From NCBI GenBank assembly GCA_000002445.1, contig CH464491.1, positions 3,776,001 to 3,840,000 of the forward strand: a stretch of 64,000 bases of DNA. Reading direction: 5' to 3'. Source of the stretch: Trypanosoma brucei (Eukaryota). Positions 37,071 to 51,772 of the stretch are shown here, piece after piece (within the stretch, counting starts at the first letter, position 1; every line of letters starts with the position of its first letter). The translations under genes were made by a program, and so were the position numbers. A model generated the notes under the pieces. That model saw only the letters and a program-made list of their open reading frames with translations, did no database searches and had not been told where the DNA came from.

Positions 37071-38960
37071 ATGTCACTAAACCCTAACGCTCCTCCATGG
37101 AATGTTCCTGATCACAATATGGACCACGGCATGGACCCGCATGGTCGTCACGGGCACCAAGACCCCCGGTTTCACAATTTCAGCGGTTACTATCCTCAGC
37201 ACATGCCCATGCACCAAATGCAAAGTGTGCAAAATATGGGAATGCCACGGTCTATGATGAATCACGGCTACAACCATCCAGCTGCTCATATACATCCCAT
37301 GCAACATAGTGCGCCACCCGGTCAGGCGTTCCACCAGGGGCGAGCGCGAGGTCAGGCTTATCTTGGTGGACACGTGAACGCAATGCCCGCCGTTCCCGCG
37401 CCATCATATAGGAAACAGCACATTGTGGTGGTGGTGGTGCTCGGTTACAGGTGCGTAGGGAAAACAACTGTTGCCCGACAAATAGCAAAGGTACGCAACT
37501 ATCGGTACGTCTCCCTGAAACCTAGTGAAGATGCCGGTAGCGTTTCGCCAGAGGCATTCGTGGCGCCGGTGGTGGAACTTTTGGCCAGTAAGAATTCATA
37601 TGAAGGTATAGTCATTGATGACATTGTGTCACAGAATAAGTACGACCCCTACTACGTACAGTCTGTGTTGCAGAAACACGGACTCAAGCTGGATGTTGTG
37701 GTTTTATTGGACAGTGAGTTGGACAATGCAAAGGAAGGCGTGGATTATGAAGATCCGCAGCAGCGGAAGCTGCATCCAGAGAGCTACGAGTTCTGTGCGT
37801 GTCACCTCAATGGTGGAAATGCCGTTGTAGTGGAATGTCGCGGGAAGGATCTCGACGAAACAGTTGCTGAAGCAATGCGACAACTGAATGATGTGAACAT
37901 TGTGAAGGAATCAACTATTACGCTAAAGGAGGTTGCGCTAATGCCCAACTGCCCACTGGTGTGCAACCCATCAATGGTGACAGAGGTATTGGCGGCGCAA
38001 AGTGGAGTGTTAGGCCTTGCTGAGTCTGCTTCCTTTCCCTTCTCGGAACCTAATTACCTGTTAGAGTATACCATATTCGCGCGTCAGGCGCACGCGTTCC
38101 GAAGCTATATGATCATTCCATGGATCAAAGGCGATAAGGTGTCACTCATTGGTTACAAAGATGCTATTTATTTGCACCTTCCAGCATATAATATACTATT
38201 TCAACTTAATGATAGCCCAACTGCACTAACGCACCTACTCAAAGAGACAACTGCAACGGGCGGATTGGCCTTCATATTCGAGGCCACTTTTGCCGCAAAT
38301 AAACTACACGTATCCGACTTACTCCTGTTGGGTGGCATGAAAGGATCCGAAATGCTGGTAAATGAACGTGTGGATTTGTTGAAGGAGAAACTTGGTGAAT
38401 TGAGGGAAGGTGCTGTGCAGCTGCTTCCCTGGTACCCTGTAAAGGATATGGAGATGTGCAAGAAGGAAAATCCAGAAGCAGATGGCATACTTTTCGTAAA
38501 TCCTGACGGTATTCAAGTTGGAGAGTACGACAGTCGAAACTATCTGTACCCGCTGCACAGGAAGAAAACAGTAGAACTTCGCATATGGAATGGTAATTTC
38601 ACTGGAGGGGTGTGGACATTCGATGCATACTGTGAGGAGGTGGGTACTGAGAAACTTGTCGAAGGCATTCCTGTGCACATCAATGATGATGTTGTGACTG
38701 AATACTGCATCAATGATGGTAACATTTTGGAGTGCACTCGAGAAGAGCAAAGTGTCGGAACAAATAAAGCACGCAAAGGGGGGAAACACTACGTGTTCAA
38801 GAGCCGTTGTCAGTGGGCTTCCAAGCCAACGACAACATACAAACAGGAATGCTTTGTTAATGAACCCAAGTGGCCATCAGACCGGCTAGCACAGGCGTGT
38901 GCTGCGATTACTTACACTCCCGCTGTGCGACGGGAAGTGCAGAATGAAGCTTCTGGGTAA
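37071..38960 (+). CDS. Divergent tandem paralogue of the CE1 capping enzyme: N-terminal PAM2-like motif, an M/H/Q-rich low-complexity region, a P-loop domain and a degenerate guanylyltransferase-like domain
   Basis: ATG at 37071. 'SLNPNAPPWNVP' matches the PAM2 consensus (compare Paip2 'NLNPNAKEFVP'). Walker A is 'GYRCVGKTT'. Three blocks are colinear with CE1: 'IKGDKVSLIGYK' with 'LKADGLRFLVMK', 'EADGILFVNPDG' with 'PVDGLIFQHNGS', and 'GGVWTFDAYC' with 'NGVWTFDLFV'. The KxDG motif has eroded to KGDK and motif V is lost. Confidence 0.65.
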   Translation: MSLNPNAPPWNVPDHNMDHGMDPHGRHGHQDPRFHNFSGYYPQHMPMHQMQSVQNMGMPRSMMNHGYNHPAAHIHPMQHSAPPGQAFHQGRARGQAYLGGHVNAMPAVPAPSYRKQHIVVVVVLGYRCVGKTTVARQIAKVRNYRYVSLKPSEDAGSVSPEAFVAPVVELLASKNSYEGIVIDDIVSQNKYDPYYVQSVLQKHGLKLDVVVLLDSELDNAKEGVDYEDPQQRKLHPESYEFCACHLNGGNAVVVECRGKDLDETVAEAMRQLNDVNIVKESTITLKEVALMPNCPLVCNPSMVTEVLAAQSGVLGLAESASFPFSEPNYLLEYTIFARQAHAFRSYMIIPWIKGDKVSLIGYKDAIYLHLPAYNILFQLNDSPTALTHLLKETTATGGLAFIFEATFAANKLHVSDLLLLGGMKGSEMLVNERVDLLKEKLGELREGAVQLLPWYPVKDMEMCKKENPEADGILFVNPDGIQVGEYDSRNYLYPLHRKKTVELRIWNGNFTGGVWTFDAYCEEVGTEKLVEGIPVHINDDVVTEYCINDGNILECTREEQSVGTNKARKGGKHYVFKSRCQWASKPTTTYKQECFVNEPKWPSDRLAQACAAITYTPAVRREVQNEASG

Positions 38961-38964
38961 TAGA

Positions 38965-39100
38965 CGCTGGTATGAACATGAAAAGAAGAAAAAGGTGGGG
39001 AAGGGAGAGAAGGAAGAAAGGGAATGTCAGGGAGAAAATACGGAAAAGAAAAAGGAAAAGAAGGAGAGTCAGACTAACAAAGAAGAGGAGTAAGGGAAAG
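38965..39100. repeat. Polypurine (GA/GAA-rich) tract of about 135 nt immediately 3' of the CE1-paralogue stop codon
   Basis: Read directly: 'gaaaagaagaaaaaggtggggaagggagagaaggaagaaagggaa...gaaaagaaaaaggaaaagaaggagag...aagaagaggag'. Confidence 0.8.
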
Positions 39101-39829
39101 AAGGACCGCGTATTTGAGGCATTCCCCGTTATTTTTAAATGTTGTTATTACTATTATCTGTTCTGACCTTCAAGTTGGGTTGTGCAGGTGGCGAATCTTT
39201 GGCGTTACTGTTTCTTCACGATGGTGGTACAGGGAGCATGTGCCTCCTTTCAGTGTCATCTCGTTTTCTTTTTTTTTTTGTCTTTCGTCCAGAAACGATC
39301 AGACCAAAGCATTTATAGCAACCAGTGAACTAATGGTGCTTGCGTTAACATCACCTGCGGAGAAATGTGCATCTACTCGTGTAAATCTGAGTTTACATCA
39401 CGGAGACAAAATCCGACTGCCAGAAGCAGCAGCATACAAAACAGTGCACTGTACAAAATCGTGCAATGGGAGAAGTCTTCAAGTTGTACCGCGCACGCGG
39501 TGGTGTAACTCCATTCAGAATTGGAGCAAATTTCGGTGGTGGGCACGCTGATAATTTCAATCGACTTCCACTGTTCCTCATAAATGGCGTGAAAATTTTA
39601 TTTAACGAAGTGGAGTGGTGAAAAAGAGGCTACGTAGCCACTTGCAACAGATGGTGTTCCGGTAAGAGAAACAAGGTTAAGGTAAAACCGTTGCCAAAAC
39701 TGGCGAACCGAAATTTGACCGCTTCTTCCTTCTCGTTGGCGCTCAATAGTGGTAACAAGGTGCTTGGTACTGGAGCGCAGGGGAAAGCGGGTTTTGCGGT
39801 TTAACTCCCGTGGCACATGTACCAAAATA

Positions 39830-39922
39830 ATGATAACAATAATAATAATAATAGTCGTGAGCTCTGCGCGGAAAGGCCACTGTTGTGTGTGAGTGAGTGA
39901 GTGAGTGTGTGTGTGTGTGTGT
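39830..39922. repeat. Compound microsatellite (AAT)n ... (GTGA)n(GT)n
   Basis: Read directly: 'aataataataataatag' followed by 'gtgtgtgagtgagtgagtgagtgtgtgtgtgtgtgtgtaa'. Confidence 0.85.
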
Positions 39923-41358
39923 AATAACTGTCAATGAAGCTTCCAAATGAGCAACGTACTCATGGCAGGTCCGTCAGTTGCACCGATGCATTAATCTTGG
40001 GAAGTTCGGGTACACTATAGGTGCGAAACTCCAGGTTCCCGGCGCATAAAAATTCAAATGCAATGTAATCCACATGGCGTCTACGGCTCCTGGACGACAC
40101 ATAAGCAGTTGCGTTTGTGAAAGTTGCACTTGAGGTCATATGTGGAAATTTGGGGTTCTATGGGCATTCTCCGTTAATGGAATTCGAATTAATAAAAATG
40201 ATGCTTTTGAACGTCGTTTCCAAGCGGAGGCCTCAAAGGCGAGGACAAAAAGAAAAAAACAGTGGAAAAACATAACGTTGGACTGAGGGTTGGTTCTGTT
40301 GATTTAAAAAAAATCGGTCAAACGCTTCATTTCGGACCAACAGCTGTCATAGGCCTTCCGGAAGGAGCCGCATCGTGGCTGGTGAGAACAAACGGGTTTG
40401 GCGTGTGTTCCTCCGCTGTAACTCCAAATGTTAGCGCTTCGTTAAGTAACATGGGGGGAATATGCATTTTCAGGTGCGTAAATTAACTTACGTGGAACTT
40501 GCTGTTTTTTGTTACTACATATCTCAGTTATTTGCAGTATGTCCAACACAATACATGTCTTCACAGTGGCGAATAGTCTGCCCAGACACGCTGACAGTTG
40601 ACGCTGAAGGTAAGGCGCGTAAAGGTATGGCAGTATTGTGTGAATTCATGCAACATCAACATTGATACGTTGTGCCGGATGGCTCTGTTATCTACCGAAG
40701 TCCGCGTATGGTTCACAAAAAAAAATATTGGGAGTAGTTTTGTGGAAAGACATTTCAAGCTGCTTGATTTCCCACTTCCTCGTGACTGTGAAGGTGGCGG
40801 TAATTCAAAAGAAAATCATACTGCGGAGGCACTGGAGATTACAATTATTTTGCTGCGTTTAAACACCTGCACAGAGCATGTGCATAAGTTTATTTTCATT
40901 GAGAACAGCGACTTTGGGTGCAAGGGGATCGCTGCGTTGGTTACCGTTGGCTAACCCACTGCGTCTCTTCCTCCACATCTTTTTCAATGAATTCTTTTAC
41001 GTTTTCAGCACTTGCTTTTGCTCTTATTGTTTTCGCTGCGTTTCCGAAATCCAAAAGGAGTGCCGCCGACGCTACGAAGAAAAAATTATATCAAAAAAGA
41101 CATCTTGAATAATGTCTAATGATAATGGGGGTACAATTTTCAGGCATATTTATGAGAGAACTTCCCGTTTGCACCTATTCTCGTTTCGTTACTTTCCACC
41201 GCGGCCGGCATAGCACAGAGGGCAACCTCTCGTCGTGCCTTCATTTTCTCTCTTCAATATTTCATGGAAACAATTGTTTCGTTAAACTGTCGGTACAAAT
41301 AGTTCGTTGGCGTCACCGAACAATGAGCACATGAATTTAAAAAATAAATAAACTATCG

Positions 41359-41390
41359 GTGTGCGTGTGTGTGTGTGTGTGGGGGGGGGG
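41359..41390. repeat. (GT)n microsatellite fused to a G10 homopolymer run
   Basis: Read directly: 'gtgtgcgtgtgtgtgtgtgtgtgtgggggggggggaag'. A second G7 run lies at about 41505. Confidence 0.85.
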
Positions 41391-42942
41391 AAGTGCCTAA
41401 TGTAGAAATCGTTACCTTCTGTCGGTCAGTGAATGTGTAAGTGCTCTGTGCCATAATACCTCGTTGCACATTTTTAAGAGTCAAAGTAAATATTGTATTG
41501 GCGTGGGGGGGAACGTGTAAATTAACGGAGAGACAACACAACGAAGTCTCCGCTGCTAACGACTTTGGAAGCAAACGTATTATCGTAAAATTGCGGTAAC
41601 GCTATACTGCAGGTGAGAGAAATGTAAAGGATATGCGCGCTGGTCGAGTGTCCAACATGGGTGGAATACAAGTTACGTGTACGAAATAAACAAAAACACA
41701 TGTGACCTAAATTATATAGATTAAGAGGATGAAGTACAGGAAAGTCTTGAAGGAAACAATAACTCGTGGTCCTAACTCCCTTTCTTTTGAGATGCAGCAG
41801 GAAGACAATTACCTGTGTGTTGTTTGTGTAAAGGTGGAATGGGAAAGAGTTATGAGGGAAGAGCTGTGGATGCTGAGCAAGAGGAGTCGTGATGTAAAGC
41901 TAAGAGGAATGGTTGGAATTGAAATGGGATCGAGTGTGAATAAGGTGATGGTTGCGTTTTGTCTGGTACGGATCTCAGATGGCAATGACATATTTTGTAA
42001 TGTGGTTGAATATGAATAAATAAGCAAAAGGAAAGTTGGACAGAAACTCCCCCTTTAACATCTTCCATTAAAGGATGGAAGAATGTGGTTTTCAATCGTT
42101 AATTTTTAATAATGCTAGTTTCGTGGAGAAAGGGTAATGATTTCTCGGATGCAAAGGCCGATATTTTCAGACGGAGGAGAACAGAAATTGATGGAGTGTT
42201 ATATCGCATGAATGAGTAACAAAATATTTATCTTTACTACGGGGATGCAATATTTGTGTGTATTTATTCAAATTCTTATTTACTACACACACCGAGAAGT
42301 GGAGAACATCTCATTACAAATAGTTGGGTGCTCTACAGGGACTCATCTTCTGGAGTCTCAAAGTGGTTTGGGTTCGCCAGTATGAGTGAGCAATGGGAAG
42401 GTAAAGGTAAGTTGAAGAAATAGGTTCATTTATCGGCAAACAGGATGTAAAGGGACACTGTAAGCGTACGAATAGCTGTTTATTTGATTGTCTTTGGTAA
42501 TGTGTATATTTTATGATGACTGACAAAAAGGTTGTGTGTCACCCCTTGTGACTGCGGCGGGAGGGGCGCAAGGGGTAATCTATTGTTTTTGGTTGAGTGC
42601 TAACTGATGGTAGTGTGATGTTTCTCGCTGCGGTGCGGGGGGTAATATCCAGGTTAATGAGTGTGGGTCCACAACATCGAAGGCAGAACCTATTCCTACG
42701 CTGCTTTCCAATGCGTCAAAGCTCTGCAAACAAAACCGGCAATCCTCTCCCACCCAACCTCGCGGAGCCGCATGCTGTAATCAAATCCGCTTGCAAACTG
42801 CAGCAACCACTTTGTACAATTTTTTTTTTCCTGCGTCCCATGTGATAACTGTCGCATAAACGAGGGGTAGCGGCCAGCGCTACACATACCCACATTATGT
42901 ATGCATTTGCCTACCGTTTCAGTCATTTGTATTTCTATAGAC

Positions 42943-44154
42943 ATGCTTGCAACAGTAGTTTTGTTTGTTGTGGCATTGGGAGTTAGCGTCGGTGATATAA
43001 ACGCCGAGAGGGCGGCGCTGAAGTTGAAGGTAGCTCAAGGGGTTTGTGCAGCAACGAAGGCGCTGAAGTCAGTTCACAGATACACGGTAGAAAAGGTGAA
43101 GGAGGCTGAGGGAAAATTGGAAGATGTACAGAATATGGTGAAACTGGCGAAACTCAAGGTGCTGAGGGAAAAAAAGGCTGGTAGTGTCGATTGCAGAACG
43201 ATGGCGTTTTTCCTCAACTATACAGTGAAGAAGGTGTCCGGTATGATAGAGTTACTTCCGAAAATTAGGGAGCAGGGTTTAAATCTCACGGCGTCAGCGG
43301 GTATAGCTGCAGGGAGATTGGAAGAAATGATAAATGTATTTCACCAACCATCTGACAGGCAGGAGAGTGATATCTTTTTCTGCATTGCAGGTAAACAAGG
43401 TGAAGGAGTTACAAAAAGCGAATTGGCTGACTGCTTCAAGGGTGGGAGGGATGCGATTGACTCTTCCCATTTTGTGGCCTTTGGTGATGCCGAGGCAACG
43501 AAGGGTTGGCAAGATATTTTCAAGGAGAAGGACGGGCTGGAGGGAGCATTGAAGAAACATCTAACAGTGGACGACAACGACCCTAGGTTTACGAGGGGGG
43601 AGGGACGCGGATGTCAGTTGGTACACGGAATGCAGGGAGGGGGATATATCAAGGATGCGAACTTCACGGAGCACATGCTATGGGGGGATGGTATACTTGG
43701 GGTGAAGAAAGATGGAAATGGAACGACTGGATATGTAGGAAGCACGAGGGGTAGCGACTACGATCACGATATTCTTTGGGAGAAGGATCCAACGGCGAGT
43801 GTCCCCAGTCTTCACGCAACCGTAAGTGATTACCACTCTTTCAGTGGTTTGCTGCACAAGTATGACACCATTTACCGCAGTGTTACAGAGGAGTGGACTG
43901 CAGATTTAATCCAGAGAGATCCCGAGGCTACTGATTTGCTAACCGCATCGGAGCTCACCGTCGAGGACGTTGCTGCACTCAACAGCCGCACGAAGCAGGA
44001 GTGGCTTTCCCAGAAACACGCCAAGGAAGCGGACAAGGAGTTTCTAATGACAGAGATACGATTTTGCGGGAAACTGAAACGAAGGGGATTCATCAGACGA
44101 ATGGTGAAGAAGATCCTTGGCGGACTTCGTATAAGTTGGACATCGGAGGGTTAG
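42943..44154 (+). CDS. ESAG7/PAG-like VSG-fold surface/secreted glycoprotein with a signal peptide and no C-terminal GPI signal
   Basis: The track start at 42901 is ATG, and a second in-frame ATG at 42943 begins the signal peptide 'MLATVVLFVVALGVSVG'. 'AAGRLEEMINVF', 'FFCIAGKQG' and 'LADCFKGG' resemble ESAG6/7 transferrin-receptor-family blocks (from memory). There are several NxT/S sites. The C-terminus is hydrophilic. Confidence 0.55.
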   Translation: MLATVVLFVVALGVSVGDINAERAALKLKVAQGVCAATKALKSVHRYTVEKVKEAEGKLEDVQNMVKLAKLKVLREKKAGSVDCRTMAFFLNYTVKKVSGMIELLPKIREQGLNLTASAGIAAGRLEEMINVFHQPSDRQESDIFFCIAGKQGEGVTKSELADCFKGGRDAIDSSHFVAFGDAEATKGWQDIFKEKDGLEGALKKHLTVDDNDPRFTRGEGRGCQLVHGMQGGGYIKDANFTEHMLWGDGILGVKKDGNGTTGYVGSTRGSDYDHDILWEKDPTASVPSLHATVSDYHSFSGLLHKYDTIYRSVTEEWTADLIQRDPEATDLLTASELTVEDVAALNSRTKQEWLSQKHAKEADKEFLMTEIRFCGKLKRRGFIRRMVKKILGGLRISWTSEG

Positions 44155-44284
44155 CAGTTTGTTTTGTGTGTGTCAACAGTTCTTTATTTGCAAATACGGA
44201 GGTTTGTACTGACTTCTTTGTCAATGGGTATTCGTGCAGGTGTACGTGTAGTGCTGTCTCTTTATTCCTGAAGTTATTGCCATT

Positions 44285-45394
44285 ATGAGGTTCATGCTAA
44301 GGTTAGTTATGTTGCTTGGTGTCCCCGTTGTATTTGCGGATGTGGCTACTATTGATAACAAACCACTGTCTAACAAAACAGTAGAGAGCATTTGTGATTT
44401 GTCAAAGATGTTGAAATTTGGGGTTCGTGCTTATGTCCTCAGTAAGACAAGGGAAGTGGAAGAGAAGTTGAAAGAGGTGACAATAGTAGGGAATTATGCG
44501 AAGCTGAAGATGCTGACGGGTAATTTAAGTGGCTTTGAGTGCGCCCAAAAGAAAATATACGTTACACATACACTGGAAACGAAAAGGGCAAGGATCAGTG
44601 ATTTGTTTAGGGACATGTGGAGCACAGGGGCGAAGCTGGTAGGCTCGTCAGGTCTTGTAGCAGGGAGGTTGGACGAGTTGGTAAATGTGTTTGCAAGTGC
44701 ATGGGCGAACGAAAGTCATTACTGTGCCCAAGGCTTTAAAAAAATTGTTACTTGCAATACATCAAAAGATAGTAGTGTGTCCTTAGAAGATTTTGACCGC
44801 AAGGGTCTAGCAAGTATTGTGGATGAAACACTCAGCATTAACAGCGATGAAGTGTTAGAAAACAAGAGCACTAGTTGCCTGCTAACTCAGGGGTTCAATG
44901 GGGGAGGATATCTGAAATACTCAAACAGCCAAGATCAAACTAAGAGTTCCGGACTGAAAAGGAATCTTGTTTGGGGTGACGGAATATTTGGTATCAGGAG
45001 AGACGGAAATGGTAGTACCTCGTCTCAAGGTATTGTTTCTAGTGCAGAGTATCCGACGGATGTCATGTGGGAGCACCAGCCATCAAAAATGATTCCCATT
45101 ATCAAATCGACAGTGAAAGATTTTGTAGACTTTCAAAAAGGCTTTAAGGAAATTGGCGTTGAGTTGAGGGCCCTTTTTAAGGAGTTGAAAGCGAAGGGTA
45201 TGATGACCACTGTGGCTGACAGTGATATTGCCGACAGTGATCAGCAGCTACTGAACCACAATTTCAAGATGTGCGGGAAGTTTTCTGTTGGAAAGGGAGA
45301 TTATTTTAAAGGGAGTGGGGTAGTGGGTCATACCACGTTGGGTGGAAACTGCATGCGTGCTGTTTTTTTTGTATTCTCTGTGGTATTGTGGTAA
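44285..45394 (+). CDS. ESAG6/PAG-like VSG-fold surface glycoprotein, paralogue of the upstream gene, with a signal peptide and a C-terminal GPI-anchor signal
   Basis: ATG at 44285. The signal peptide is 'MRFMLRLVMLLGVPVVFA'. 'VAGRLDELVNVF' and 'LVWGDGIFGIRRDGNG' are paralogous to 'AAGRLEEMINVF' and 'LWGDGILGVKKDGNG' of the upstream gene. The hydrophobic C-terminus 'AVFFVFSVVLW' is typical of a GPI signal. Confidence 0.6.
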   Translation: MRFMLRLVMLLGVPVVFADVATIDNKPLSNKTVESICDLSKMLKFGVRAYVLSKTREVEEKLKEVTIVGNYAKLKMLTGNLSGFECAQKKIYVTHTLETKRARISDLFRDMWSTGAKLVGSSGLVAGRLDELVNVFASAWANESHYCAQGFKKIVTCNTSKDSSVSLEDFDRKGLASIVDETLSINSDEVLENKSTSCLLTQGFNGGGYLKYSNSQDQTKSSGLKRNLVWGDGIFGIRRDGNGSTSSQGIVSSAEYPTDVMWEHQPSKMIPIIKSTVKDFVDFQKGFKEIGVELRALFKELKAKGMMTTVADSDIADSDQQLLNHNFKMCGKFSVGKGDYFKGSGVVGHTTLGGNCMRAVFFVFSVVLW

Positions 45395-45495
45395 CTGCAA
45401 TTCTAATGAGTGCTCTCCTTTTTGTTGTATGGAAACACTTATTCTGCTTACGCGATCCAAATATTTCTCATAAACTTTTAATTTTTAAAGTGAGA

Positions 45496-46872
45496 ATGGA
45501 AAAGCTTGGAATATTGCTTTTGGCTACCACTACGTTTGTAGTTGGGACAACTACGGAAAATAAGGAAAACCTCCGCAATCAGCAAGAATTTAATCAACTA
45601 TGCAGGATTTTGAGACTTGTGGAAGGGGATCCAGGACAAGTCGTTAAGGAGCCTCCAAACTTGGGAATCCTCATAGAAGTGCTCCAAAAAATGGTGAAGG
45701 CAACCTTTGTAAAGGAGTCGTCTTACCAAGAAGCAGTTGATGCAAGGGAAAAATGGAAGAGCACAGACAGTACGGTCGAAACAAAGAATATTATGGATAA
45801 GCAACGTGCGGATGATTTGGTGAGGTATAAGATTACACACGAGAAACTCAAGAAACTCCTCGCGAAAGCCAAGATGCTGGTGAGCAGGATCAAGGAGGAA
45901 AGGTACTTGGCATATGTATCGAGGAATGCTGCACTAGAGAAGATGGCGAAAGTTGTATATGGAAGCAGCGCAGAAAAAATGTTCAGGAATGAAACTGAAT
46001 TTGAAAAGTTTTTGGCCAATTCACAAGGCACAATAGTGGGTAAAACGGCCAAGGAGACATGTGGGATGTCAAATGATAAAATGAAGAATGTAAGTTTTGC
46101 GGGTTACTCACTGGTTGGAGACTTTTTCTGCTTGTGTGTTGGTGAAAATAATAATGCCACGCTATGCGACAAAAGCTTCAGTGGACCCAGGGAGGAGCAT
46201 AAGTGGACAAAAGTGATGTTTGAGGACAAACTTGTTGACTTTGCTGCTGGTTGGTTTAAGATAAGAGGTTTGTGTTATGTCAATGCCACGAGTGGAATAA
46301 AGGATGTGGTAACTCCAGAAAATATTAGCACGGAGATTGTAGCCTTCAACAAGATGCTTGGAAGACAGCGGGATGATGTTCAAATTTATCGAAGAGAAGC
46401 CGAATCATATCGACAGTACATTCTTGGGAGGGTTGAGCAAGTAGGATTTACTGACAGTGCAATATGCACTGGAGAGCACCAGCATATGTGTGTAAATTAC
46501 GCACAATGCTTGGTCTCGAATAAAGGTATTCCATGGCAACTCAAGCTAATGGAGGCAGAGGAGGATCTAGAGGATGTGGAAAAACATAACATGGAGGTGC
46601 ATGTGCTAATTGGGAGGTTGGATAAACTCATTGAGAAAATCAAGAAAGCAGCAGAGCAACTCAGTCAAGAGATGGAAGGAATTGATGTTGCAGTTGAGAA
46701 GGTTCAGTTGCTGGAGGAAGAGATCGAAGAAAATGAAACCACGGGAAAAAGTGAGGCAACCGCAGGAGAGTTTAATGATAATGCGCAACCTGAGGAGGGG
46801 AGTTTAGATAAATGTGAATATTGGGGTATGTTTTCTATTTTGTTCGGGGTTGTAGCATTTAGCCTCGTGTAA
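45496..46872 (+). CDS. VSG-fold GPI-anchored surface glycoprotein, second subfamily of the array
   Basis: The track start at 45388 is GTG, and the first ATG at 45496 begins the signal peptide 'MEKLGILLLATTTFVVG'. The Cys-rich core carries 'GDFFCLCVGENNNATLCDK'. An acidic coiled-coil segment follows, then the GPI-signal-like C-terminus 'YWGMFSILFGVVAFSLV'. Confidence 0.55.
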   Translation: MEKLGILLLATTTFVVGTTTENKENLRNQQEFNQLCRILRLVEGDPGQVVKEPPNLGILIEVLQKMVKATFVKESSYQEAVDAREKWKSTDSTVETKNIMDKQRADDLVRYKITHEKLKKLLAKAKMLVSRIKEERYLAYVSRNAALEKMAKVVYGSSAEKMFRNETEFEKFLANSQGTIVGKTAKETCGMSNDKMKNVSFAGYSLVGDFFCLCVGENNNATLCDKSFSGPREEHKWTKVMFEDKLVDFAAGWFKIRGLCYVNATSGIKDVVTPENISTEIVAFNKMLGRQRDDVQIYRREAESYRQYILGRVEQVGFTDSAICTGEHQHMCVNYAQCLVSNKGIPWQLKLMEAEEDLEDVEKHNMEVHVLIGRLDKLIEKIKKAAEQLSQEMEGIDVAVEKVQLLEEEIEENETTGKSEATAGEFNDNAQPEEGSLDKCEYWGMFSILFGVVAFSLV

Positions 46873-47006
46873 TGTTTTTGTTTGACGTTGGTGTTATGGT
46901 GATGAATCTCTTTGTTTGACCTGACTGATTAAGGCGAAAATAACGCTGCTGATAACTTTGTACCTCCCTTTTCCACCTTTTACCTCTTAAGATATAAACA
47001 ACAACA

Positions 47007-48374
47007 ATGAGGAGTGAAATAGTGCTTGTTGTTGGGTTGTTTTTAACTGTTTTATTCTCTTCTCCACAGGGTGATTTGGCTGGATATAAATGGAGCACAG
47101 AATCTATTAACTGGAGTGCGATTACGAAACTCATTGGAGTCAATGACGAGTACCATAACGCTGGCGAGTTCGAAGCTCTTTGCAAGATTTACAGAATCAC
47201 GCAGGCAGAAGCCCCGCAGCCTTTCTTTAAGAATCGTGAGAGGGAAGGTGAGATTGTGAAGAAGTTGCAGGAAATGATCAGTGAGACGGAGGCTGCGGGT
47301 GGTAATAAAGTTTTGAATAAATCAGCTAACAGCACAACAGCATATCAGGAGATAAAGAAACTTCTTGAAAAGGCGAAAAAGCTGAAGGAAGAAATAGAAG
47401 TCAACAGGACAAAAGCCTTGAATGCAAGTCGCTCTGCTGAAGAAAATATGCTGAGGGCTGTGTATGGCGATGCTGTGGATGTGGCAAGAAATGGGAATAA
47501 AACATTGGAGGAGGCCATGAGGGGAAACAAGTCACTGCTGTTCAATAGTGTTGATGATGCAGGTACAAGTTGTGGTTCTTACGGAGAGAAGCTGGTTGGC
47601 AAGACACTAATCAATGACTTTTTCTGCCTATGTGTGGGAGAGGCTAAGAACGTGAAAATAAAGCAAAATCTTCTGCACCCCGGGCATGTCACACCTTATG
47701 ACGGTGTGTATAATGGATACAATTGTCCCTGCAAGGATGAAATAAGGAGACCGAAAAGCGGCAGTTGGACTATGATGGCTGAATATTGTAAAGGTGGCGA
47801 AGACATTTGTAACCCTGACAACGTAACATATGACCATACTGAAGCATGGGACGTGATCAGTAAAGCTTGTGTATACAAAAATGTTGCATCTAATGTAAAA
47901 ACCTTGAAGAGTGCACTGGCTCAGTTTGATGCGTTGTTGAATTTGGAACAGGATGAGTATCAAGTCAGGGGTATTTTTGGTTATGTTAGAACGGAAAATA
48001 ACGAAAATCGCACGTGCACAGGTCACACTGCTGGGTTTACATGTGTCAGTTACAATCACACACTTGAAAATGGTGGAATTCCTTGGTACAACCGCCTTAC
48101 TAATGCTACCGAGCAACTACAAGAAATGGCAAAGTATGCCAAAGAAGCTGACAGTCATCTTCATGAATTGGAAGAGTACCAACATGAGGCAGAGGAAATA
48201 TTTCTTGAGGTGAAACTTGGTGGTGATGCAGAGCTGTGGAAAAATAGCCGAGCTCAAGGTGAAAGTGACAGTGAAGGTTATGATACTGGGGTAAATAATG
48301 ATGGACTTACTCATTTGAATGTGGAAACTGGGGGGTTTACATTATTAATTTTATCTCTTATTTGTATCTTTTAG
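47007..48374 (+). CDS. VSG-fold GPI-anchored surface glycoprotein, paralogue of 45496-46872
   Basis: ATG at 47007. The signal peptide is 'MRSEIVLVVGLFLTVLFSS'. 'NDFFCLCVGEAKN', 'GIPWYNRL' and the acidic helical region are colinear with the upstream gene ('GDFFCLCVGENNN', 'GIPWQLKL'). The GPI-signal-like end is 'GGFTLLILSLICIF'. There are many NxS/T sites. Confidence 0.55.
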   Translation: MRSEIVLVVGLFLTVLFSSPQGDLAGYKWSTESINWSAITKLIGVNDEYHNAGEFEALCKIYRITQAEAPQPFFKNREREGEIVKKLQEMISETEAAGGNKVLNKSANSTTAYQEIKKLLEKAKKLKEEIEVNRTKALNASRSAEENMLRAVYGDAVDVARNGNKTLEEAMRGNKSLLFNSVDDAGTSCGSYGEKLVGKTLINDFFCLCVGEAKNVKIKQNLLHPGHVTPYDGVYNGYNCPCKDEIRRPKSGSWTMMAEYCKGGEDICNPDNVTYDHTEAWDVISKACVYKNVASNVKTLKSALAQFDALLNLEQDEYQVRGIFGYVRTENNENRTCTGHTAGFTCVSYNHTLENGGIPWYNRLTNATEQLQEMAKYAKEADSHLHELEEYQHEAEEIFLEVKLGGDAELWKNSRAQGESDSEGYDTGVNNDGLTHLNVETGGFTLLILSLICIF

Positions 48375-48576
48375 TTTGATTCTATGCCACCAACTATATT
48401 ATGTTATGCCATGTTTTTTTATTTCGTTTCTTTGTTGTGTTTGAAATGATATGGTGCATGCATATATGCATATACATGACTGCATCACTGTGTATTTGTG
48501 TTTTTCTCACGATATGAAACTGTATTAATTACCCTTTAGATATTTTCTTCTCTCATTTAGATAAACAATAAAGGAA

Positions 48577-49707
48577 ATGTCTCTGTTTATTGCAGCGGTG
48601 TATTTGACAGCGTTGACCGTGGTTGAGGTGGTCATGGGGAAGCATGCTGGTAAGGCCATGACTGAGAAGGATGCCGAGACATTGTGTAATCTTAGCTATG
48701 CTTTGAGGGTTGTGAGCGCTGACATTCAAAGAAAGCAAAAAGATGCGACTGCAAAGGTGGATGAAGTGCGAGAGTGGCGGCACCGGCATGGTGTAAAGGG
48801 GAGGACATGGAAAGCAATAGTACAGGGTTTGGAGAAGATAAGGGTTGTTAATGAAAGTTACATGGAAGGTATAAAGAAAACATATGGGGAAATGGAAAAG
48901 ATAATGAACGGTACGGATAGTGCCCTTTTGATAATGGATACTAGTTTTTTAAGCATTGTGAGAGTGTCCTATCATGTTGTGAATGCGTCAGAATCTATTG
49001 GACAGGTATTGAGGGATCTGGTGGTGATGTTTGAGAAAACGAAGGATGAAAAAGATAGTTGGTGCTGTTTGGTGAAAGGTAAAGAAGCGTTGAGTGGCGA
49101 AGGATGTGGAAATGGTGGGGATGGTAATGATCAGAAATACAAAGTGGTTGGTATACCCGAAAAATGTAAGACATCTGTTACTGTGAATACAACGAGCGAA
49201 GGAATAATGACATTACTAAAAGAACATGAGAGAAGTCAAGAAATCGAATTTACAACTAATGAGAGACCGAATTGCTGGATCATGGGTACGGAAAAAGTTG
49301 CTAATGGAGGAGCTGGATCTTTCATAGTGGGAGCTACTGGAGGCTTTGTTACGTACCGTAACGGCGATGCTGTTACTCTGAGATCTCAGAATATGATACC
49401 CGAACTCATCAAGAACTACACCTTAGTTAGAAAGGGATATGAAAGTATCAAGGACAAATACAATAAGTTAAAACCAAATTTTGGACCTTTTGATGAACAC
49501 GAAAACCAACTAAAAGAATTGTTAACTCAGAGCCCGATGGTACGTAGGTATTTCAAGGAGAGTGGGAAGAAGCGCAAGGGAGGTGAGGATGATGATGATG
49601 TAATAGATGATGAAGGATCCTCCATGAGAAAACAATGGGCGGCAGCAGGCGTAATCTCTCGCTGCAGTTCTAGTTTTGTAGCTTTATCATTTTGCACGGT
49701 ATTGTAG
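48577..49707 (+). CDS. More divergent member of the same surface-protein array (signal peptide plus GPI-signal-like C-terminus)
   Basis: ATG at 48577. The signal peptide is 'MSLFIAAVYLTALTVVEVVMG'. 'IGQVLRDLVVMF' echoes the '...GRLxExxNVF' helix of the first two genes. It has a G-rich 'ANGGAGSFIVGATGGF' segment and a hydrophobic C-terminus 'FVALSFCTVL'. Confidence 0.5.
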   Translation: MSLFIAAVYLTALTVVEVVMGKHAGKAMTEKDAETLCNLSYALRVVSADIQRKQKDATAKVDEVREWRHRHGVKGRTWKAIVQGLEKIRVVNESYMEGIKKTYGEMEKIMNGTDSALLIMDTSFLSIVRVSYHVVNASESIGQVLRDLVVMFEKTKDEKDSWCCLVKGKEALSGEGCGNGGDGNDQKYKVVGIPEKCKTSVTVNTTSEGIMTLLKEHERSQEIEFTTNERPNCWIMGTEKVANGGAGSFIVGATGGFVTYRNGDAVTLRSQNMIPELIKNYTLVRKGYESIKDKYNKLKPNFGPFDEHENQLKELLTQSPMVRRYFKESGKKRKGGEDDDDVIDDEGSSMRKQWAAAGVISRCSSSFVALSFCTVL

Positions 49708-51772
49708 GCAACAGTTTTATTATTGGGATTATTCACTTTTTGTATATTATGTTTGTGTGTGATGAAATTGTGGCTCTTCCTCCGCTTGATAAACTGATGT
49801 AGCGTAGTGCAGATGATGATGCACCTCGCGGTGAAGTTAGCAATCTTAACCCGTTTTTTTTTTGCAGTATTGAGGCAGAATACGTTGAGTGCTTTTCTAT
49901 TAATGTTGAAGAAGTTGATAGAGTGCTCGAGTCCATATGTTATCTTAGTTGCCTTTCGAGCACATTAAACAGGTTGTACACCGATGGTGAGCAGGAGCTG
50001 TTTGTGAACGAGGAGGTGCACGCAAATGTGTCTCGTATAGTAGGGGCGATATGGAAGGGGAAAGCAAGTTCGAGCACGGAACAGCGTGGTGTTATTAGCG
50101 GTGCAGTGGAAGAACGTACCGAAATAAGCTGGAATACCTCACATCATATGGGAATGGAATGGGAAATCTTTCGGAGAAAATTGGTGGATTATTCGCTAAA
50201 GTTAGTGACGGTGTAGGTGAGTGGGGAATCTACTACCTTGCACCTCCTGCACGCAATTAAATGTTATACGGCCATTGCGGATGTAGTTAGTACGATATGG
50301 AATGATGTTGTGGTGAAGCATGGATCCTCAATATGGATAAATGCAAACATCAAGTTTGAAGGACGAGTGTGATTACCAAACGTGTCCATTAGGATGTGGC
50401 GTCAGGAAAAGTGCTCTTAGAAAAAAAAAGGAAGGGAGGCTGCTCTTGTGTGGTGCAAGCAAGTGCCCGATGCCACGGATAAATTTAGACGCTTGTGGGG
50501 TTATGAACAACCCAAGTAATGTTCTGAAATGGAAAGACAGTCGTTTCTTCTTTCCAACGACGGATGTCCGTGATGTCTTCACTCCCCTCATCGTTTCTTC
50601 TGCTAGTCAACTACCTTCGAGACTCTCGGATATGATCGCAAATGTAACTTCCTTCCACTCACACTTCAACGAAACCCGCAGTAAGTTTATGTCACGTACC
50701 CACGACACTCTCCTTGTCACCGCGGGTAGAGATTCCGCTTTTAACAATCACGCATGTACGAGTTATCTCCTCTGCTCGTAACATTCCCACATTGATACCT
50801 CTGCGTGCGTGTTTTCTTTTTCTACTGTTATGTCCTCATGAGCCCCTTTTAATTCTGTGGTAAGGGCAATATTTCAAACACGTATGTGTGGCCGTGGGTG
50901 TTACTTTTTGTGTCAGGAATCACGATTGCTACGCGTTGCATTTGCTCCGAGACCGCCGACGCGGTTAATAACTTGTGCGACCAACTTGAGTTCGGGTGTG
51001 AGCGCTCGCTTTTGTGACGAGTGCGCGGCGGCCTTAATGTTGCAATCGTGATGTGATTCGGGTTAAAATGAGGTATCGAGTGGCGTGAGATGCAGCGATA
51101 CCGCATGCTATCGGTAATGGTGCAAGAGATAGAGGTTACTTAAGCTTATACTTGAGCCTAAACAATGCACTTGACGGTTTGTCAAACGCGTCACCACGCG
51201 TGCGCCTATCGTTGTGCTTTTTTTTTTTTTAGTAGAAGGGCGCGCATGTCATGAATGACTCACGCGATTTTTTTCTTCATAAAAAGAGGGTGGACGATAC
51301 CGCAACGGCCGGTTGGGAAAAGCCGCTCATTGCAGAGTGCGGCTCTATAATAAGTTCACGCATGTGAATGTTGCGTGTTGTGAGGAGGAACCCAACTCCC
51401 TCTCGTGTCGTTGTGGCCCCGTTTCTATGAGAAATTCATCCCCTGAAAGTGTGTTTGTGTGTGGGAAAAGCAAGCAATGACTGGGAGTTGATCAGTAAAC
51501 AAGCTGTGGCTAACTGAGCCCCAAAGTTCCACTTCGTTGCGCGGTTAACCCCAGTGAAAGGAAAGCAGCGGGCAACAATCGTCGGAAAACGGGATGCATC
51601 TGCAGAACGCGATAACTGGCGAGAAAACGTTTTTTTTTTTTAAATCCAAGCTCGCAGGCAGTTAATGTAAAAGCAACTTAAAAAGAACTAAGAGCCCAAA
51701 GTAAGGATTATAACAGGACGGGTAAAAAAATAAATAAATAAATAAACGCGTTAAAGTTAACCGGTAAAAGGG
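49708..51772. other. Convergent strand-switch region between the + strand and - strand polycistronic units (putative Pol II termination zone)
   Basis: The last + strand CDS ends at 49707 and the first long - strand CDS ends (3') at 51773. In between lie only short ORFs, poly-T tracts and GC-rich palindromic stretches such as 'aacgcgtcaccacgcgtgcgcc'. Confidence 0.7.

What the first reader, a model, noticed from the sequence alone, without database searches (positions are those of the whole stretch)
42943..45394. Chromosome-internal ESAG7-like / ESAG6-like gene pair (first copy without, second copy with a GPI signal)
The two adjacent paralogues share the blocks 'AGRLEE/DELxNVF' and 'LxWGDGIxGxxxDGNG'. 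As far as I can recall ESAG6/7 sequences, these fall in the transferrin-receptor (ESAG6/7, PAG) family of VSG-fold proteins. The upstream gene ends in a hydrophilic tail. The downstream gene ends in a hydrophobic GPI-signal-like peptide. That is the asymmetry (ESAG7 soluble partner, ESAG6 GPI-anchored partner, in that gene order) that defines the heterodimeric transferrin receptor in bloodstream expression sites. Here the pair sits in a Pol II polycistron far from any telomere, suggesting a receptor-like heterodimer with unknown ligand, or an evolutionary source copy.
Basis: partly seen in the sequence, partly recalled or inferred. Interest (0 to 1): 0.65.

Follow-up and report, generated by a model that had tools for sequence, protein, structure and literature searches.

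The report
Known bloodstream-stage PAG2-like/PAG4-like gene pair
These are two already annotated and published Trypanosoma brucei genes (Tb11.01.6210 and Tb11.01.6220) that encode transferrin-receptor-like surface proteins, one without and one with a lipid-anchor signal; their resemblance to the two-subunit transferrin receptor has been noted in print, but their function is still untested.

Summary
Two adjacent + strand genes (42943-44154 and 44285-45394) are paralogues (26% identity, E=5e-33). Both have signal peptides. The first ends in a basic tail and the second in a GPI-signal-like hydrophobic tail.

Both belong to the transferrin-receptor-like branch of the A-type VSG fold. The best solved-structure matches, by sequence and by predicted fold, are ESAG7 and ESAG6 (6SOY). 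They sit in the PAG branch, not the ESAG6/7 branch: gene 1 is 49% identical to PAG2 and gene 2 is 38% identical to PAG4, against about 21% to ESAG6.

The window is T. brucei TREU927 chromosome 11. The genes are EAN80404 and EAN80405 (Tb11.01.6210 and 6220). [quoted passage not shown] Veitch et al. 2010 reported this cluster as 41-90-fold up-regulated in bloodstream forms.

The GPI-minus/GPI-plus pairing and its likeness to the transferrin receptor are already published (Jackson 2013; Tiengwe 2021). PAG2-PAG4 on chromosome 10 and T. congolense PAG-like pairs show the same order.

A heterodimeric receptor with a non-transferrin ligand is the likeliest mechanism but is untested. The "source copy of ESAG6/7" idea and the frameshift worry are not supported. 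Novelty: already known.

The parts
42943..44154 (+). Gene 1: PAG2-like protein, 403 aa from the ATG at 42943 (annotated as 417 aa from 42901). It is EAN80404.1 / XP_829516.1 / Tb11.01.6210. This is the GPI-minus subunit type.
   Evidence: The ORF is and the exact protein match to the TREU927 annotation. Pfam PF00913, E=8e-13. PAG2 is the best paralogue at 49% identity. ESAG7 (6soy_B) is the best solved-structure relative, E=1e-17. The AF2 model has pLDDT 75 and its top Foldseek hit is 6soy_B at 1e-11. The ATG at 42901 is ATA in T. equiperdum.
42943..42996 (+). Signal-peptide-like N-terminus of gene 1 (MLATVVLFVVALGVSVGD).
   Evidence: The maximum 9-residue Kyte-Doolittle score within the first 35 residues is 3.18. 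The segment aligns with the N-terminal signal regions of PAG2 and ESAG6/7.
44068..44151 (+). Basic C-terminal tail of gene 1 (GKLKRRGFIRRMVKKILGGLRISWTSEG, net charge +8). It follows the family-conserved Cys375 and has no GPI signal.
   Evidence: Searches find no omega candidate. The tail is conserved with PAG2 (GGLGRRSFFRRMFRKAWRKIFGGNWGKDD). T. congolense GPI-minus partners have basic/aromatic tails in the same place. Amphipathicity is not significant against shuffles, p about 0.1.
44155..44284 (+). 130-nt spacer between the two genes. It holds a short GT-rich run (44158-44176) and a pyrimidine-rich stretch followed by an AG just upstream of the gene 2 ATG.
   Evidence: Sequence, spacer lengths, no tandem repeat found by TRF. 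The spacer is not alignable with the 116-nt PAG2-PAG4 spacer beyond background.
44285..45394 (+). Gene 2: PAG4-like protein, 369 aa. It is EAN80405.1 / XP_829517.1 / Tb11.01.6220. This is the GPI-plus subunit type.
   Evidence: The ORF is and the exact match. Pfam PF00913, E=1e-9. PAG4 is the best paralogue at 38% identity. ESAG6 (6soy_A) is the best solved-structure relative, E=5e-12. The AF2 model has pLDDT 74.5 and its top Foldseek hit is 6soy_A at 9e-12.
45311..45391 (+). GPI-signal-like C-terminus of gene 2: candidate omega region G343-G348, a polar spacer, and the hydrophobic end AVFFVFSVVLW (45359-45391).
   Evidence: The rule-based scan scores it like the ESAG6 and VSG positive controls. 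It aligns with the hydrophobic tail of PAG4 and is identical in DAL972 and T. b. equiperdum.
45496..49707 (+). Rest of the co-regulated cluster: two ESAG2-like (VSG_B) genes at 45496-46872 and 47007-48374, and an ESAG11-like gene at 48577-49707. They correspond to Tb11.01.6230-6250. All three have signal peptides and hydrophobic C-termini. Spacers are 101-202 nt.
   Evidence: Pfam VSG_B, E=1.5e-51 and 4.8e-27. Termini, spacers, source names. Veitch 2010 reports all five genes 41-90-fold up-regulated in bloodstream forms.
49708..51772 (.). Convergent strand-switch region. The + strand unit ends here, and - strand housekeeping genes begin at 51773.
   Evidence: ORF orientation. Pfam finds a DEAD/Sec63 helicase at 51773-55999 on the - strand. 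No tRNA genes. Veitch 2010 describes this as a convergent strand-switch region.

Best explanation
Shown. The pair is the annotated T. brucei TREU927 chromosome 11 genes Tb11.01.6210 (PAG2-like) and Tb11.01.6220 (PAG4-like). Both are secreted-pathway proteins of the transferrin-receptor-like (ESAG6/7 + PAG) branch of the A-type VSG fold, and they fall in the PAG subfamily (Fam14). They form a GPI-minus then GPI-plus tandem, paralogous to PAG2-PAG4 at the EP procyclin locus. They open a five-gene cluster that published work shows is strongly bloodstream-form specific.

Inferred. The two proteins assemble through their long helical bundles into a heterodimer that is held on the membrane by the single GPI anchor of the PAG4-like subunit. 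By the GPI-valence rule established for ESAG6/7, such a one-anchor dimer would reside in the flagellar pocket and endosomes. There it would act as a receptor for a host macromolecule other than transferrin. The conserved basic tail of the PAG2-like subunit may add a peripheral contact with the membrane or with the partner.
For: Identity:
- The proteins match EAN80404 and EAN80405 of TREU927 exactly, on a 5.26-Mb contig.

Family:
- PF00913 hits.
- PAG2 at 49% identity and PAG4 at 38%.
- ESAG7/ESAG6 are the only strong solved-structure relatives.
- The AF2 models' best Foldseek matches are 6SOY chains (E about 1e-11, TM 0.68-0.76 on target length), ahead of VSGs.

Pair as a unit:
- The same order and a 116-nt spacer are found for PAG2-PAG4.
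- T. congolense PAG-like genes form GPI-minus then GPI-plus tandems with 72-880-nt spacers.
- The literature states the same (PMC3605285; PMC8259959).

Co-expression:
- 90-fold and 73-fold up-regulation in bloodstream forms, confirmed by RT-PCR (PMC2837033).
- 3.3-fold and 4.1-fold on microarray (PMC2771046).

Functional genes:
- Both are intact in four genomes, including tsetse-independent T. equiperdum.
- dN/dS is 0.28 and 0.40.

Why a heterodimer:
- GPI-less ESAG7 homodimers are sent to the lysosome, while one-anchor heterodimers stay in the pocket (PMC5426795).
- A conserved GPI-less subunit therefore makes most sense with an anchored partner.
Against:
- ESAG6 and ESAG7 can each form homodimers, so homodimers are possible here too.
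- The GPI signal rests on a home-made rule set.
- The GPI-plus partners of T. brucei and T. congolense are not clearly orthologous. P0014 scores higher on gene 1 than on gene 2, and deep tree nodes have under 50% support. The pairing may therefore have arisen more than once.
- As summarised in PMC4288722 (citing Haenni 2006), deletion of all procyclin-locus PAGs gave no obvious phenotype.
- No ligand is known.
Confidence: 0.5

Rival explanations
1. The two proteins work separately as homodimers. The PAG4-like protein would be a two-anchor, VSG-like invariant surface protein. The PAG2-like protein would be a soluble, secreted or lysosome-directed protein, or one attached peripherally by its basic tail. 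Adjacency would reflect tandem duplication only.
For: - A-type VSGs are homodimers, and ESAG6 and ESAG7 each form homodimers when expressed alone (PMC5426795).
- The two subunits are only 26% identical.
- The PAG2-like tail is conserved and strongly basic, which could give it a membrane contact of its own.
- The GPI-plus partners are not clearly orthologous between species.
Against: - GPI-minus then GPI-plus tandems with very short spacers recur at two or more T. brucei loci and at several T. congolense loci.
- The two genes are co-regulated to nearly the same degree.
- GPI-less dimers are degraded in bloodstream forms. That makes a conserved stand-alone GPI-less protein (dN/dS 0.28) harder to explain.
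Confidence: 0.25
2. The main role of the locus is at the DNA or RNA level. PAG-like sequences would mark or enforce transcription boundaries at strand-switch regions, and the encoded proteins would be dispensable.
For: - PAG1 contains elements that terminate Pol I transcription.
- This pair lies at the end of a unit, about 5.6 kb before a convergent strand-switch region.
- Procyclin-locus PAG knockouts had no obvious phenotype (PMC4288722, citing Haenni 2006).
Against: - Three further expressed genes lie downstream of the pair. In bloodstream forms spliced transcripts are made downstream of Tb11.01.6210-6220 (PMC2916883), so transcription does not stop here in that stage.
- Both ORFs are intact in four genomes, with dN/dS below 1.
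- The mRNAs are abundant and stage-regulated.
- Signal peptide, cysteines, fold and tails are all conserved.
Confidence: 0.1
3. The pair is a second, chromosome-internal transferrin receptor, serving as a backup or a host-range variant of ESAG6/7.
For: - ESAG6/7 are the closest solved relatives.
- Jackson 2013 reports that positions of the transferrin-binding region are conserved across ESAG6/7, PAG and T. congolense relatives.
- Some PAGs rise on iron starvation (PMC8259959), but that paper's main text does not say which PAGs.
Against: - Identity to ESAG6 is only about 21%.
- Silencing ESAG6/7 alone abolishes transferrin uptake and viability in bloodstream forms (PMC5426795), the stage in which this pair is expressed. 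The pair therefore does not substitute for ESAG6/7.
- The membrane-distal regions align poorly with ESAG6/7.
Confidence: 0.05

Closest known systems
PAG2 and PAG4 of the EP/PAG1 procyclin locus, T. brucei chromosome 10 (cell-surface phylome Fam14)
   Same: - They are the closest paralogues: gene 1 vs PAG2 49% identity, gene 2 vs PAG4 38%, and each pair groups at 100% bootstrap.
- The order is the same, GPI-minus then GPI-plus, with a short spacer (116 vs 130 nt) and a position just before a convergent strand-switch region.
- The GPI-minus member has the same basic tail, and the GPI-plus member the same hydrophobic tail.
   Different: - PAG2/PAG4 lie in a Pol I procyclin unit and are associated with procyclic forms. 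This pair is 73-90-fold higher in bloodstream forms.
- This pair is followed by ESAG2-like and ESAG11-like genes rather than preceded by procyclin genes.
- The spacer sequences are no longer alignable.
ESAG7/ESAG6 heterodimeric transferrin receptor (Fam15; PDB 6SOY/6SOZ)
   Same: - They share the protein superfamily and predicted fold.
- The tandem order is the same, with the GPI-minus gene first and the GPI-plus gene second.
- Both are expressed in bloodstream forms.
   Different: - They belong to a different subfamily, at about 21% identity.
- This pair is not telomeric and not promoter-proximal in an expression site.
- Its subunits are 26% identical, whereas ESAG6 and ESAG7 are near-identical.
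- The GPI-minus subunit here is longer (403 vs 369 aa) and carries a conserved basic tail, whereas ESAG7 is a truncated ESAG6.
- Transferrin binding is unlikely.
T. congolense 'Transferrin receptor-like, PAG-like' genes (Fam14)
   Same: - They are the next-closest homologues: P0006 vs gene 1 at 33% identity, 193 bits.
- They occur as tandems of a 421-432 aa GPI-minus protein with a basic/aromatic tail, followed on the same strand by a 367-405 aa GPI-plus protein.
   Different: - They form a multi-copy family on short, unplaced contigs (Jackson 2013 places the ESAG6-like Fam15 tandems, not these, at subtelomeres), whereas this is a single core-chromosome pair.
- The GPI-plus partners are not clearly orthologous to gene 2 or PAG4.
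Tb10.70.1300/1310 PAG cluster on chromosome 10 (Veitch 2010, cluster 2)
   Same: [quoted passage not shown]
   Different: - Its PAG members are of the PAG1 and PAG2 types. P0012 is a 394 aa GPI-plus protein that groups with PAG1.
- It is accompanied by hypothetical genes rather than ESAG2/ESAG11 relatives.
- I did not examine it at DNA level.

Membership tests
Transferrin-receptor-like branch of the A-type VSG fold (ESAG6/7 + PAG; Fam14 + Fam15) | Significant sequence similarity to ESAG6/7 that is stronger than to VSGs | tested here: met
   Gene 1 matches ESAG7 at 1e-17 and ESAG6 at 8e-15, against 0.16 for VSG MITat1.2. Gene 2 matches ESAG6 at 5e-12 and ESAG7 at 2e-10, with no VSG below E=1. 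PF00913 is above its cut-off for both genes.
Transferrin-receptor-like branch of the A-type VSG fold (ESAG6/7 + PAG; Fam14 + Fam15) | Fold: two long antiparallel helices plus a third helix forming a bundle, with a membrane-distal head of loops and short strands | tested here: met
   The AF2 models (pLDDT 75.4 and 74.5) have helices of about 50 residues at 28-79 and 84-134 (gene 1) and 30-78 and 84-138 (gene 2), a strand-rich head, and a third helix at 288-315 or 271-303. The top three Foldseek PDB hits are 6SOY/6SOZ chains (E 1e-11 to 1e-9), followed by A-type VSGs. Model confidence is moderate, and the heads and tails are the weak parts.
Transferrin-receptor-like branch of the A-type VSG fold (ESAG6/7 + PAG; Fam14 + Fam15) | N-terminal signal peptide | tested here: met
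   Both genes have hydrophobic N-termini, with maximum 9-residue Kyte-Doolittle scores of 3.18 and 2.70. This is a hydropathy check only; no trained predictor was run.
PAG subfamily (Fam14) | Closest relatives are PAG1/2/4/5 and T. congolense PAG-like proteins rather than ESAG6/7 | tested here: met
   Gene 1 is 49% identical to PAG2 and gene 2 is 38% identical to PAG4. Identity to ESAG6 is about 21%. Profile-search scores are 662-234 bits for PAG and PAG-like proteins against 108 bits for ESAG6. Gene 1 + PAG2 and gene 2 + PAG4 each have 100% bootstrap support. The source annotation agrees.
ESAG6/7 sensu stricto (Fam15, the transferrin receptor) | Promoter-proximal position in a telomeric bloodstream expression site | tested here: not met
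   The window has no telomere repeats, and housekeeping genes flank the cluster (CPSF160-like, capping enzyme, a DEAD/Sec63 helicase). The locus is an internal site on chromosome 11.
ESAG6/7 sensu stricto (Fam15, the transferrin receptor) | Two near-identical subunits, with the GPI-minus one being a C-terminally truncated copy of the other | tested here: not met
   The subunits are 26% identical. The GPI-minus protein is 34 residues longer and has its own conserved tail. By contrast, ESAG7 is 57 residues shorter than ESAG6 and otherwise very close to it.
ESAG6/7 sensu stricto (Fam15, the transferrin receptor) | GPI-minus gene immediately upstream of a GPI-plus gene | tested here: met
   (rule-based GPI scan with ESAG6 and VSG as positive controls and PAG5 as a negative control).
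ESAG6/7 sensu stricto (Fam15, the transferrin receptor) | The two products form a heterodimer | not testable with these tools
No interaction data were found in the papers read.
ESAG6/7 sensu stricto (Fam15, the transferrin receptor) | Binds host transferrin | not testable with these tools
   Only indirect evidence is available. Silencing ESAG6/7 abolishes transferrin uptake in the stage where this pair is expressed (PMC5426795), which argues against binding.

The most novel reading that the evidence does not exclude
Bloodstream-form T. brucei carries a second heterodimeric, single-GPI-anchored receptor (PAG2-like and PAG4-like subunits) for a host ligand other than transferrin. It would be encoded in a chromosome-internal, expression-site-like cassette together with ESAG2 and ESAG11 relatives. 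The GPI-minus/GPI-plus two-gene module would be older than the T. brucei / T. congolense split, making the two-subunit architecture ancestral to the whole transferrin-receptor-like family rather than an ESAG6/7 peculiarity.
Probability: 0.3. Interest if true: 0.6.

Novelty: already known. Interest (0 to 1): 0.22.

Why it matters
PAG protein function has been unknown since PAG1 was described in 1992. Bloodstream-form trypanosomes have only a few characterised receptors for host macromolecules (transferrin, haptoglobin-haemoglobin, factor H, complement C3).

A stage-specific, invariant, receptor-like heterodimer encoded outside the expression sites would be a useful target for ligand discovery and possibly for intervention. 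It would also bear on how the transferrin receptor evolved from VSG-like ancestors.

That question, and this locus as a candidate, are already in the literature. The scan finding rediscovers them and adds no new handle.

Tried and rejected
There is therefore no interface test.
- The third homologous-protein search, run with a profile, returned only the four proteins already known. The index-free representative search supplied ESAG6 and the T. congolense proteins instead.
- The neighbour-joining tree gave 100% support only for the shallow pairs. Deep nodes had 1-54% support, partly an artefact of scoring rooted clades. I therefore do not claim that the GPI-minus and GPI-plus lineages are each monophyletic across species.
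- I tested the basic tail of gene 1 as an amphipathic helix. The hydrophobic moment was 0.58 against 0.43 +/- 0.14 in shuffles, p about 0.14. PAG2 gave p about 0.10. I dropped that claim.
- The frameshift reading of the out-of-frame hydrophobic stretch is rejected. The in-frame tail is conserved with PAG2 and is identical in the three other genomes examined.
- I looked for extra PAG-like fragments in the 3.98-kb upstream gap and in the strand-switch region by tblastn. None were found.
- The PAG2-PAG4 and gene 1-gene 2 spacers are not alignable above background.
- I could not map the old gene IDs to current Tb927.11.x IDs, because the cap on papers read was reached. Proteomic and localisation data sets that use the new IDs were therefore not checked.
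- PMC6881179, my guess for the paper describing the receptor structure, is not held. Transferrin-contact residues could not be compared.
Full report
**1. What is at the coordinates**

Two + strand ORFs lie at 42901/42943-44154 and 44285-45394, separated by 130 nt. Their products are 403 aa (from the ATG at 42943) and 369 aa. They are clearly paralogous: BLASTP gives 26% identity over 307 columns, E=5e-33.

Both proteins start with a hydrophobic, signal-peptide-like segment. Their C-termini differ:

- Gene 1 ends in a strongly basic tail, GKLKRRGFIRRMVKKILGGLRISWTSEG (net charge +8), with no hydrophobic end and no candidate omega site.
- Gene 2 ends in GSGVVGHTTLGGNCMRAVFFVFSVVLW. It has an 11-residue uncharged hydrophobic end behind a polar spacer and small residues.

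In a rule-based scan, gene 2 behaves like the positive controls ESAG6 and a VSG. Gene 1 behaves like the negative control PAG5.

Two small corrections apply:

- The out-of-frame hydrophobic stretch after the gene 1 stop comes from a short GT-rich run, not a (TGT)n array.

**2. Identity of the locus**

Exact-sequence look-up identifies the window as T. brucei brucei TREU927, on a 5.26-Mb contig.

| Gene | Accession | Annotation |
|---|---|---|
[quoted passage not shown] In the older nomenclature these are Tb11.01.6210 and Tb11.01.6220.

Upstream lie housekeeping genes: a CPSF160-like protein, the RNA guanylyltransferase TbCe1, and an AAA-domain protein. A 3.98-kb ORF-free gap follows.

Downstream, with spacers of only 101-202 nt, lie two VSG_B-domain ESAG2-like genes and an ESAG11-like gene. 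All three have signal peptides and hydrophobic C-termini.

The + strand unit then ends. From 51773 onward the - strand carries housekeeping genes, so 49.7-51.8 kb is a convergent strand-switch region. The window has no telomere repeats and no tRNA genes.

**3. Family**

- Both proteins match Pfam PF00913 (A-type VSG) above its cut-off.
- Among all solved structures, the only strong sequence relatives are the two subunits of the T. brucei transferrin receptor, 6SOY. Gene 1 matches ESAG7 at 1e-17 and ESAG6 at 8e-15. Gene 2 matches ESAG6 at 5e-12 and ESAG7 at 2e-10.
- AlphaFold2 models built from a 27-sequence family alignment reach pLDDT 75.4 and 74.5. They show the expected long helical hairpin, third helix and strand-rich head.
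- Foldseek against the PDB ranks the 6SOY/6SOZ chains first (E 1e-11 to 1e-9, TM 0.68-0.76 on target length), followed by A-type VSGs.

Within the family the genes belong to the PAG branch:

- Gene 1 is 49% identical to PAG2, and gene 2 is 38% identical to PAG4.
- Identity to ESAG6 is about 21%.
- A profile search of 1.8 billion representatives ranks PAG and T. congolense "PAG-like" proteins at 662-156 bits, well above ESAG6 at 108 bits.
- In a neighbour-joining tree, gene 1 + PAG2 and gene 2 + PAG4 each have 100% bootstrap support. Deeper nodes are unresolved.

"ESAG7-like / ESAG6-like" is therefore right at superfamily level and wrong at subfamily level.

**4. The pair is a recurring module**

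- At the EP procyclin locus on chromosome 10, PAG2 (basic tail, no GPI signal) is followed after 116 nt by PAG4 (hydrophobic tail). This pair also sits just before a convergent strand switch.
- In T. congolense IL3000, PAG-like genes occur as tandems. A 421-432 aa GPI-minus protein with a basic/aromatic tail is followed on the same strand, after 72-880 nt, by a 367-405 aa GPI-plus protein. Several annotated "proteins" there are in fact fusions of the two.

The basic tail of gene 1 is conserved with PAG2 in the reading frame. It is identical in T. b. gambiense DAL972 and T. b. equiperdum, and the T. equiperdum DNA has no indel.

One caveat stands against a single ancient origin of the pairing. 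The T. congolense GPI-plus protein P0014 scores higher on gene 1 than on gene 2, and the deep tree nodes are weak.

**5. What is already published**

- Veitch et al. 2010 (PMC2837033) describe exactly these five contiguous genes as "differentially expressed gene cluster 1". [quoted passage not shown] They note the very short intergenic regions, found no similarity to known Pol I promoters upstream, and left the polymerase open.
- Jensen et al. 2009 report 3.3-fold and 4.1-fold higher mRNA in bloodstream forms.
- Nilsson et al. 2010 report that bloodstream forms, but not procyclic forms, make spliced transcripts downstream of Tb11.01.6210-6220.
- Haenni et al. 2009 show that PAG-like sequences lie at strand-switch regions enriched in histone H3V.
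- Jackson et al. 2013 place PAGs in Fam14 and ESAG6/7 in Fam15 and map predicted GPI presence or absence on the tree. They argue that both lineages predate the T. brucei / T. congolense split, and that ESAG7 is a recent truncation of ESAG6.

I found no functional test of it in the papers I could read.

**6. Mechanism**

*Shown:* family, fold, signal peptide, tail asymmetry, tandem order, recurrence of the module, bloodstream-form co-expression (from the literature), and conservation.

On conservation: both genes are intact in four genomes, including tsetse-independent T. equiperdum. dN/dS is 0.28 and 0.40, from small counts. dS is 0.022-0.035, against 0-0.007 in the two upstream genes.

*Inferred:* the two proteins form a heterodimer anchored by the single GPI of the PAG4-like subunit.

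The argument rests on work with ESAG6/7. There, GPI-less ESAG7 homodimers are sent to the lysosome, one-anchor heterodimers stay in the flagellar pocket and endosomes, and two-anchor ESAG6 homodimers reach the surface (PMC5426795). A conserved, co-expressed GPI-less subunit next to an anchored paralogue is most simply explained as its partner.

The ligand is unlikely to be transferrin. Silencing ESAG6/7 alone abolishes transferrin uptake and viability in the stage where this pair is expressed.

I put this mechanism at about 0.5. The rivals are:

| Rival explanation | Probability |
|---|---|
| Independent homodimers | 0.25 |
| Primarily DNA-level boundary role with dispensable proteins | 0.1 |
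| Backup transferrin receptor | 0.05 |

**7. Comparison and verdict**

The pair works like, and is related to, ESAG7/ESAG6, but it is not a member of that subfamily. Three features separate it from ESAG6/7:

- It is not in a telomeric expression site.
- Its subunits are 26% identical rather than near-identical.
- Its GPI-minus subunit is the longer one, with a conserved basic tail rather than a truncation.

The pair is a member of the PAG subfamily, and its closest known counterpart is PAG2-PAG4.

The "evolutionary source copy" reading is not supported. However, the genes, their annotation, their stage-specific expression, the cluster structure and the GPI-minus/GPI-plus analogy to the transferrin receptor are all already known.

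- Novelty: already known.
- Interest: low (0.22). What interest remains comes from the still-open function of PAG proteins.

Noticed in passing
window 38961-42942: A 3.98-kb stretch with no ORF above 145 aa lies between the last housekeeping gene and gene 1. It contains (TG)n at 39884-39922, (AAT)n at 39826-39853 and (GT)n at 41359-41381, and is 94-98% conserved in T. equiperdum (L006). The five genes after it are co-regulated, and Veitch 2010 left the transcribing polymerase open, so this gap could hold a termination/re-initiation boundary or a promoter.
   Followed up: partly
window 45496-49707: Two ESAG2-like (VSG_B) genes and one ESAG11-like gene follow the PAG pair, with 101-202-nt spacers. 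All have signal peptides and GPI-signal-like tails. A TfR-like pair followed by ESAG2 and ESAG11 relatives resembles a miniature, VSG-less expression site. Veitch 2010 lists other ESAG2-ESAG11 clusters on chromosome 1.
   Followed up: partly
window 42901-42945: The annotated start codon of gene 1 (ATG at 42901, giving 417 aa) is ATA in T. equiperdum. The ATG at 42943, which gives a clean signal peptide, is conserved, so the database gene model is probably 14 codons too long.
   Followed up: yes
window 45388-45500: The start of the first ESAG2-like gene is ambiguous. The protein from the ATG at 45496 is not in the protein collection, and the published "12 bp" spacer implies an annotated start at 45406. 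The VSG_B profile match and a signal-peptide-like segment fit the ATG at 45496 better.
   Followed up: no
window 42901-45394 vs L006 8617-11110: Between TREU927 and T. equiperdum the two PAG-like genes have dS of 0.022 and 0.035 and 6 and 12 amino-acid changes. The two upstream housekeeping genes have dS of 0-0.007 and 0-2 changes. Gene 2 changes cluster at residues 141-145 and 215-245, in the predicted head. The counts are small.
   Followed up: partly
L004 232-2765; L003 761-4150; proteins P0010, P0081, P0090: T. congolense IL3000 PAG-like genes form tandems in which a GPI-minus gene is followed by a GPI-plus gene, with spacers as short as 72 nt. Several deposited proteins of 565-846 aa (for example P0010, 667 aa) are gene-model fusions of the two neighbours.
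   Followed up: partly
window 38000-50000: GC skew is strongly positive (+0.15 to +0.30) across the gap and the surface-gene cluster. It drops to about zero or below beyond the strand-switch region. GC content falls to 0.40-0.43 over 44-50 kb.
   Followed up: no
L002 8599-9885 (T. b. equiperdum chromosome 10) and protein P0003: The 428-aa "PAG" upstream of PAG4 in T. b. equiperdum and T. b. gambiense has a PAG1-like N-terminal third joined to a PAG2 body. This matches the PAG1/PAG2 fusion allele (PAG2*) described for the heterozygous EP procyclin locus (PMC4288722).
   Followed up: no
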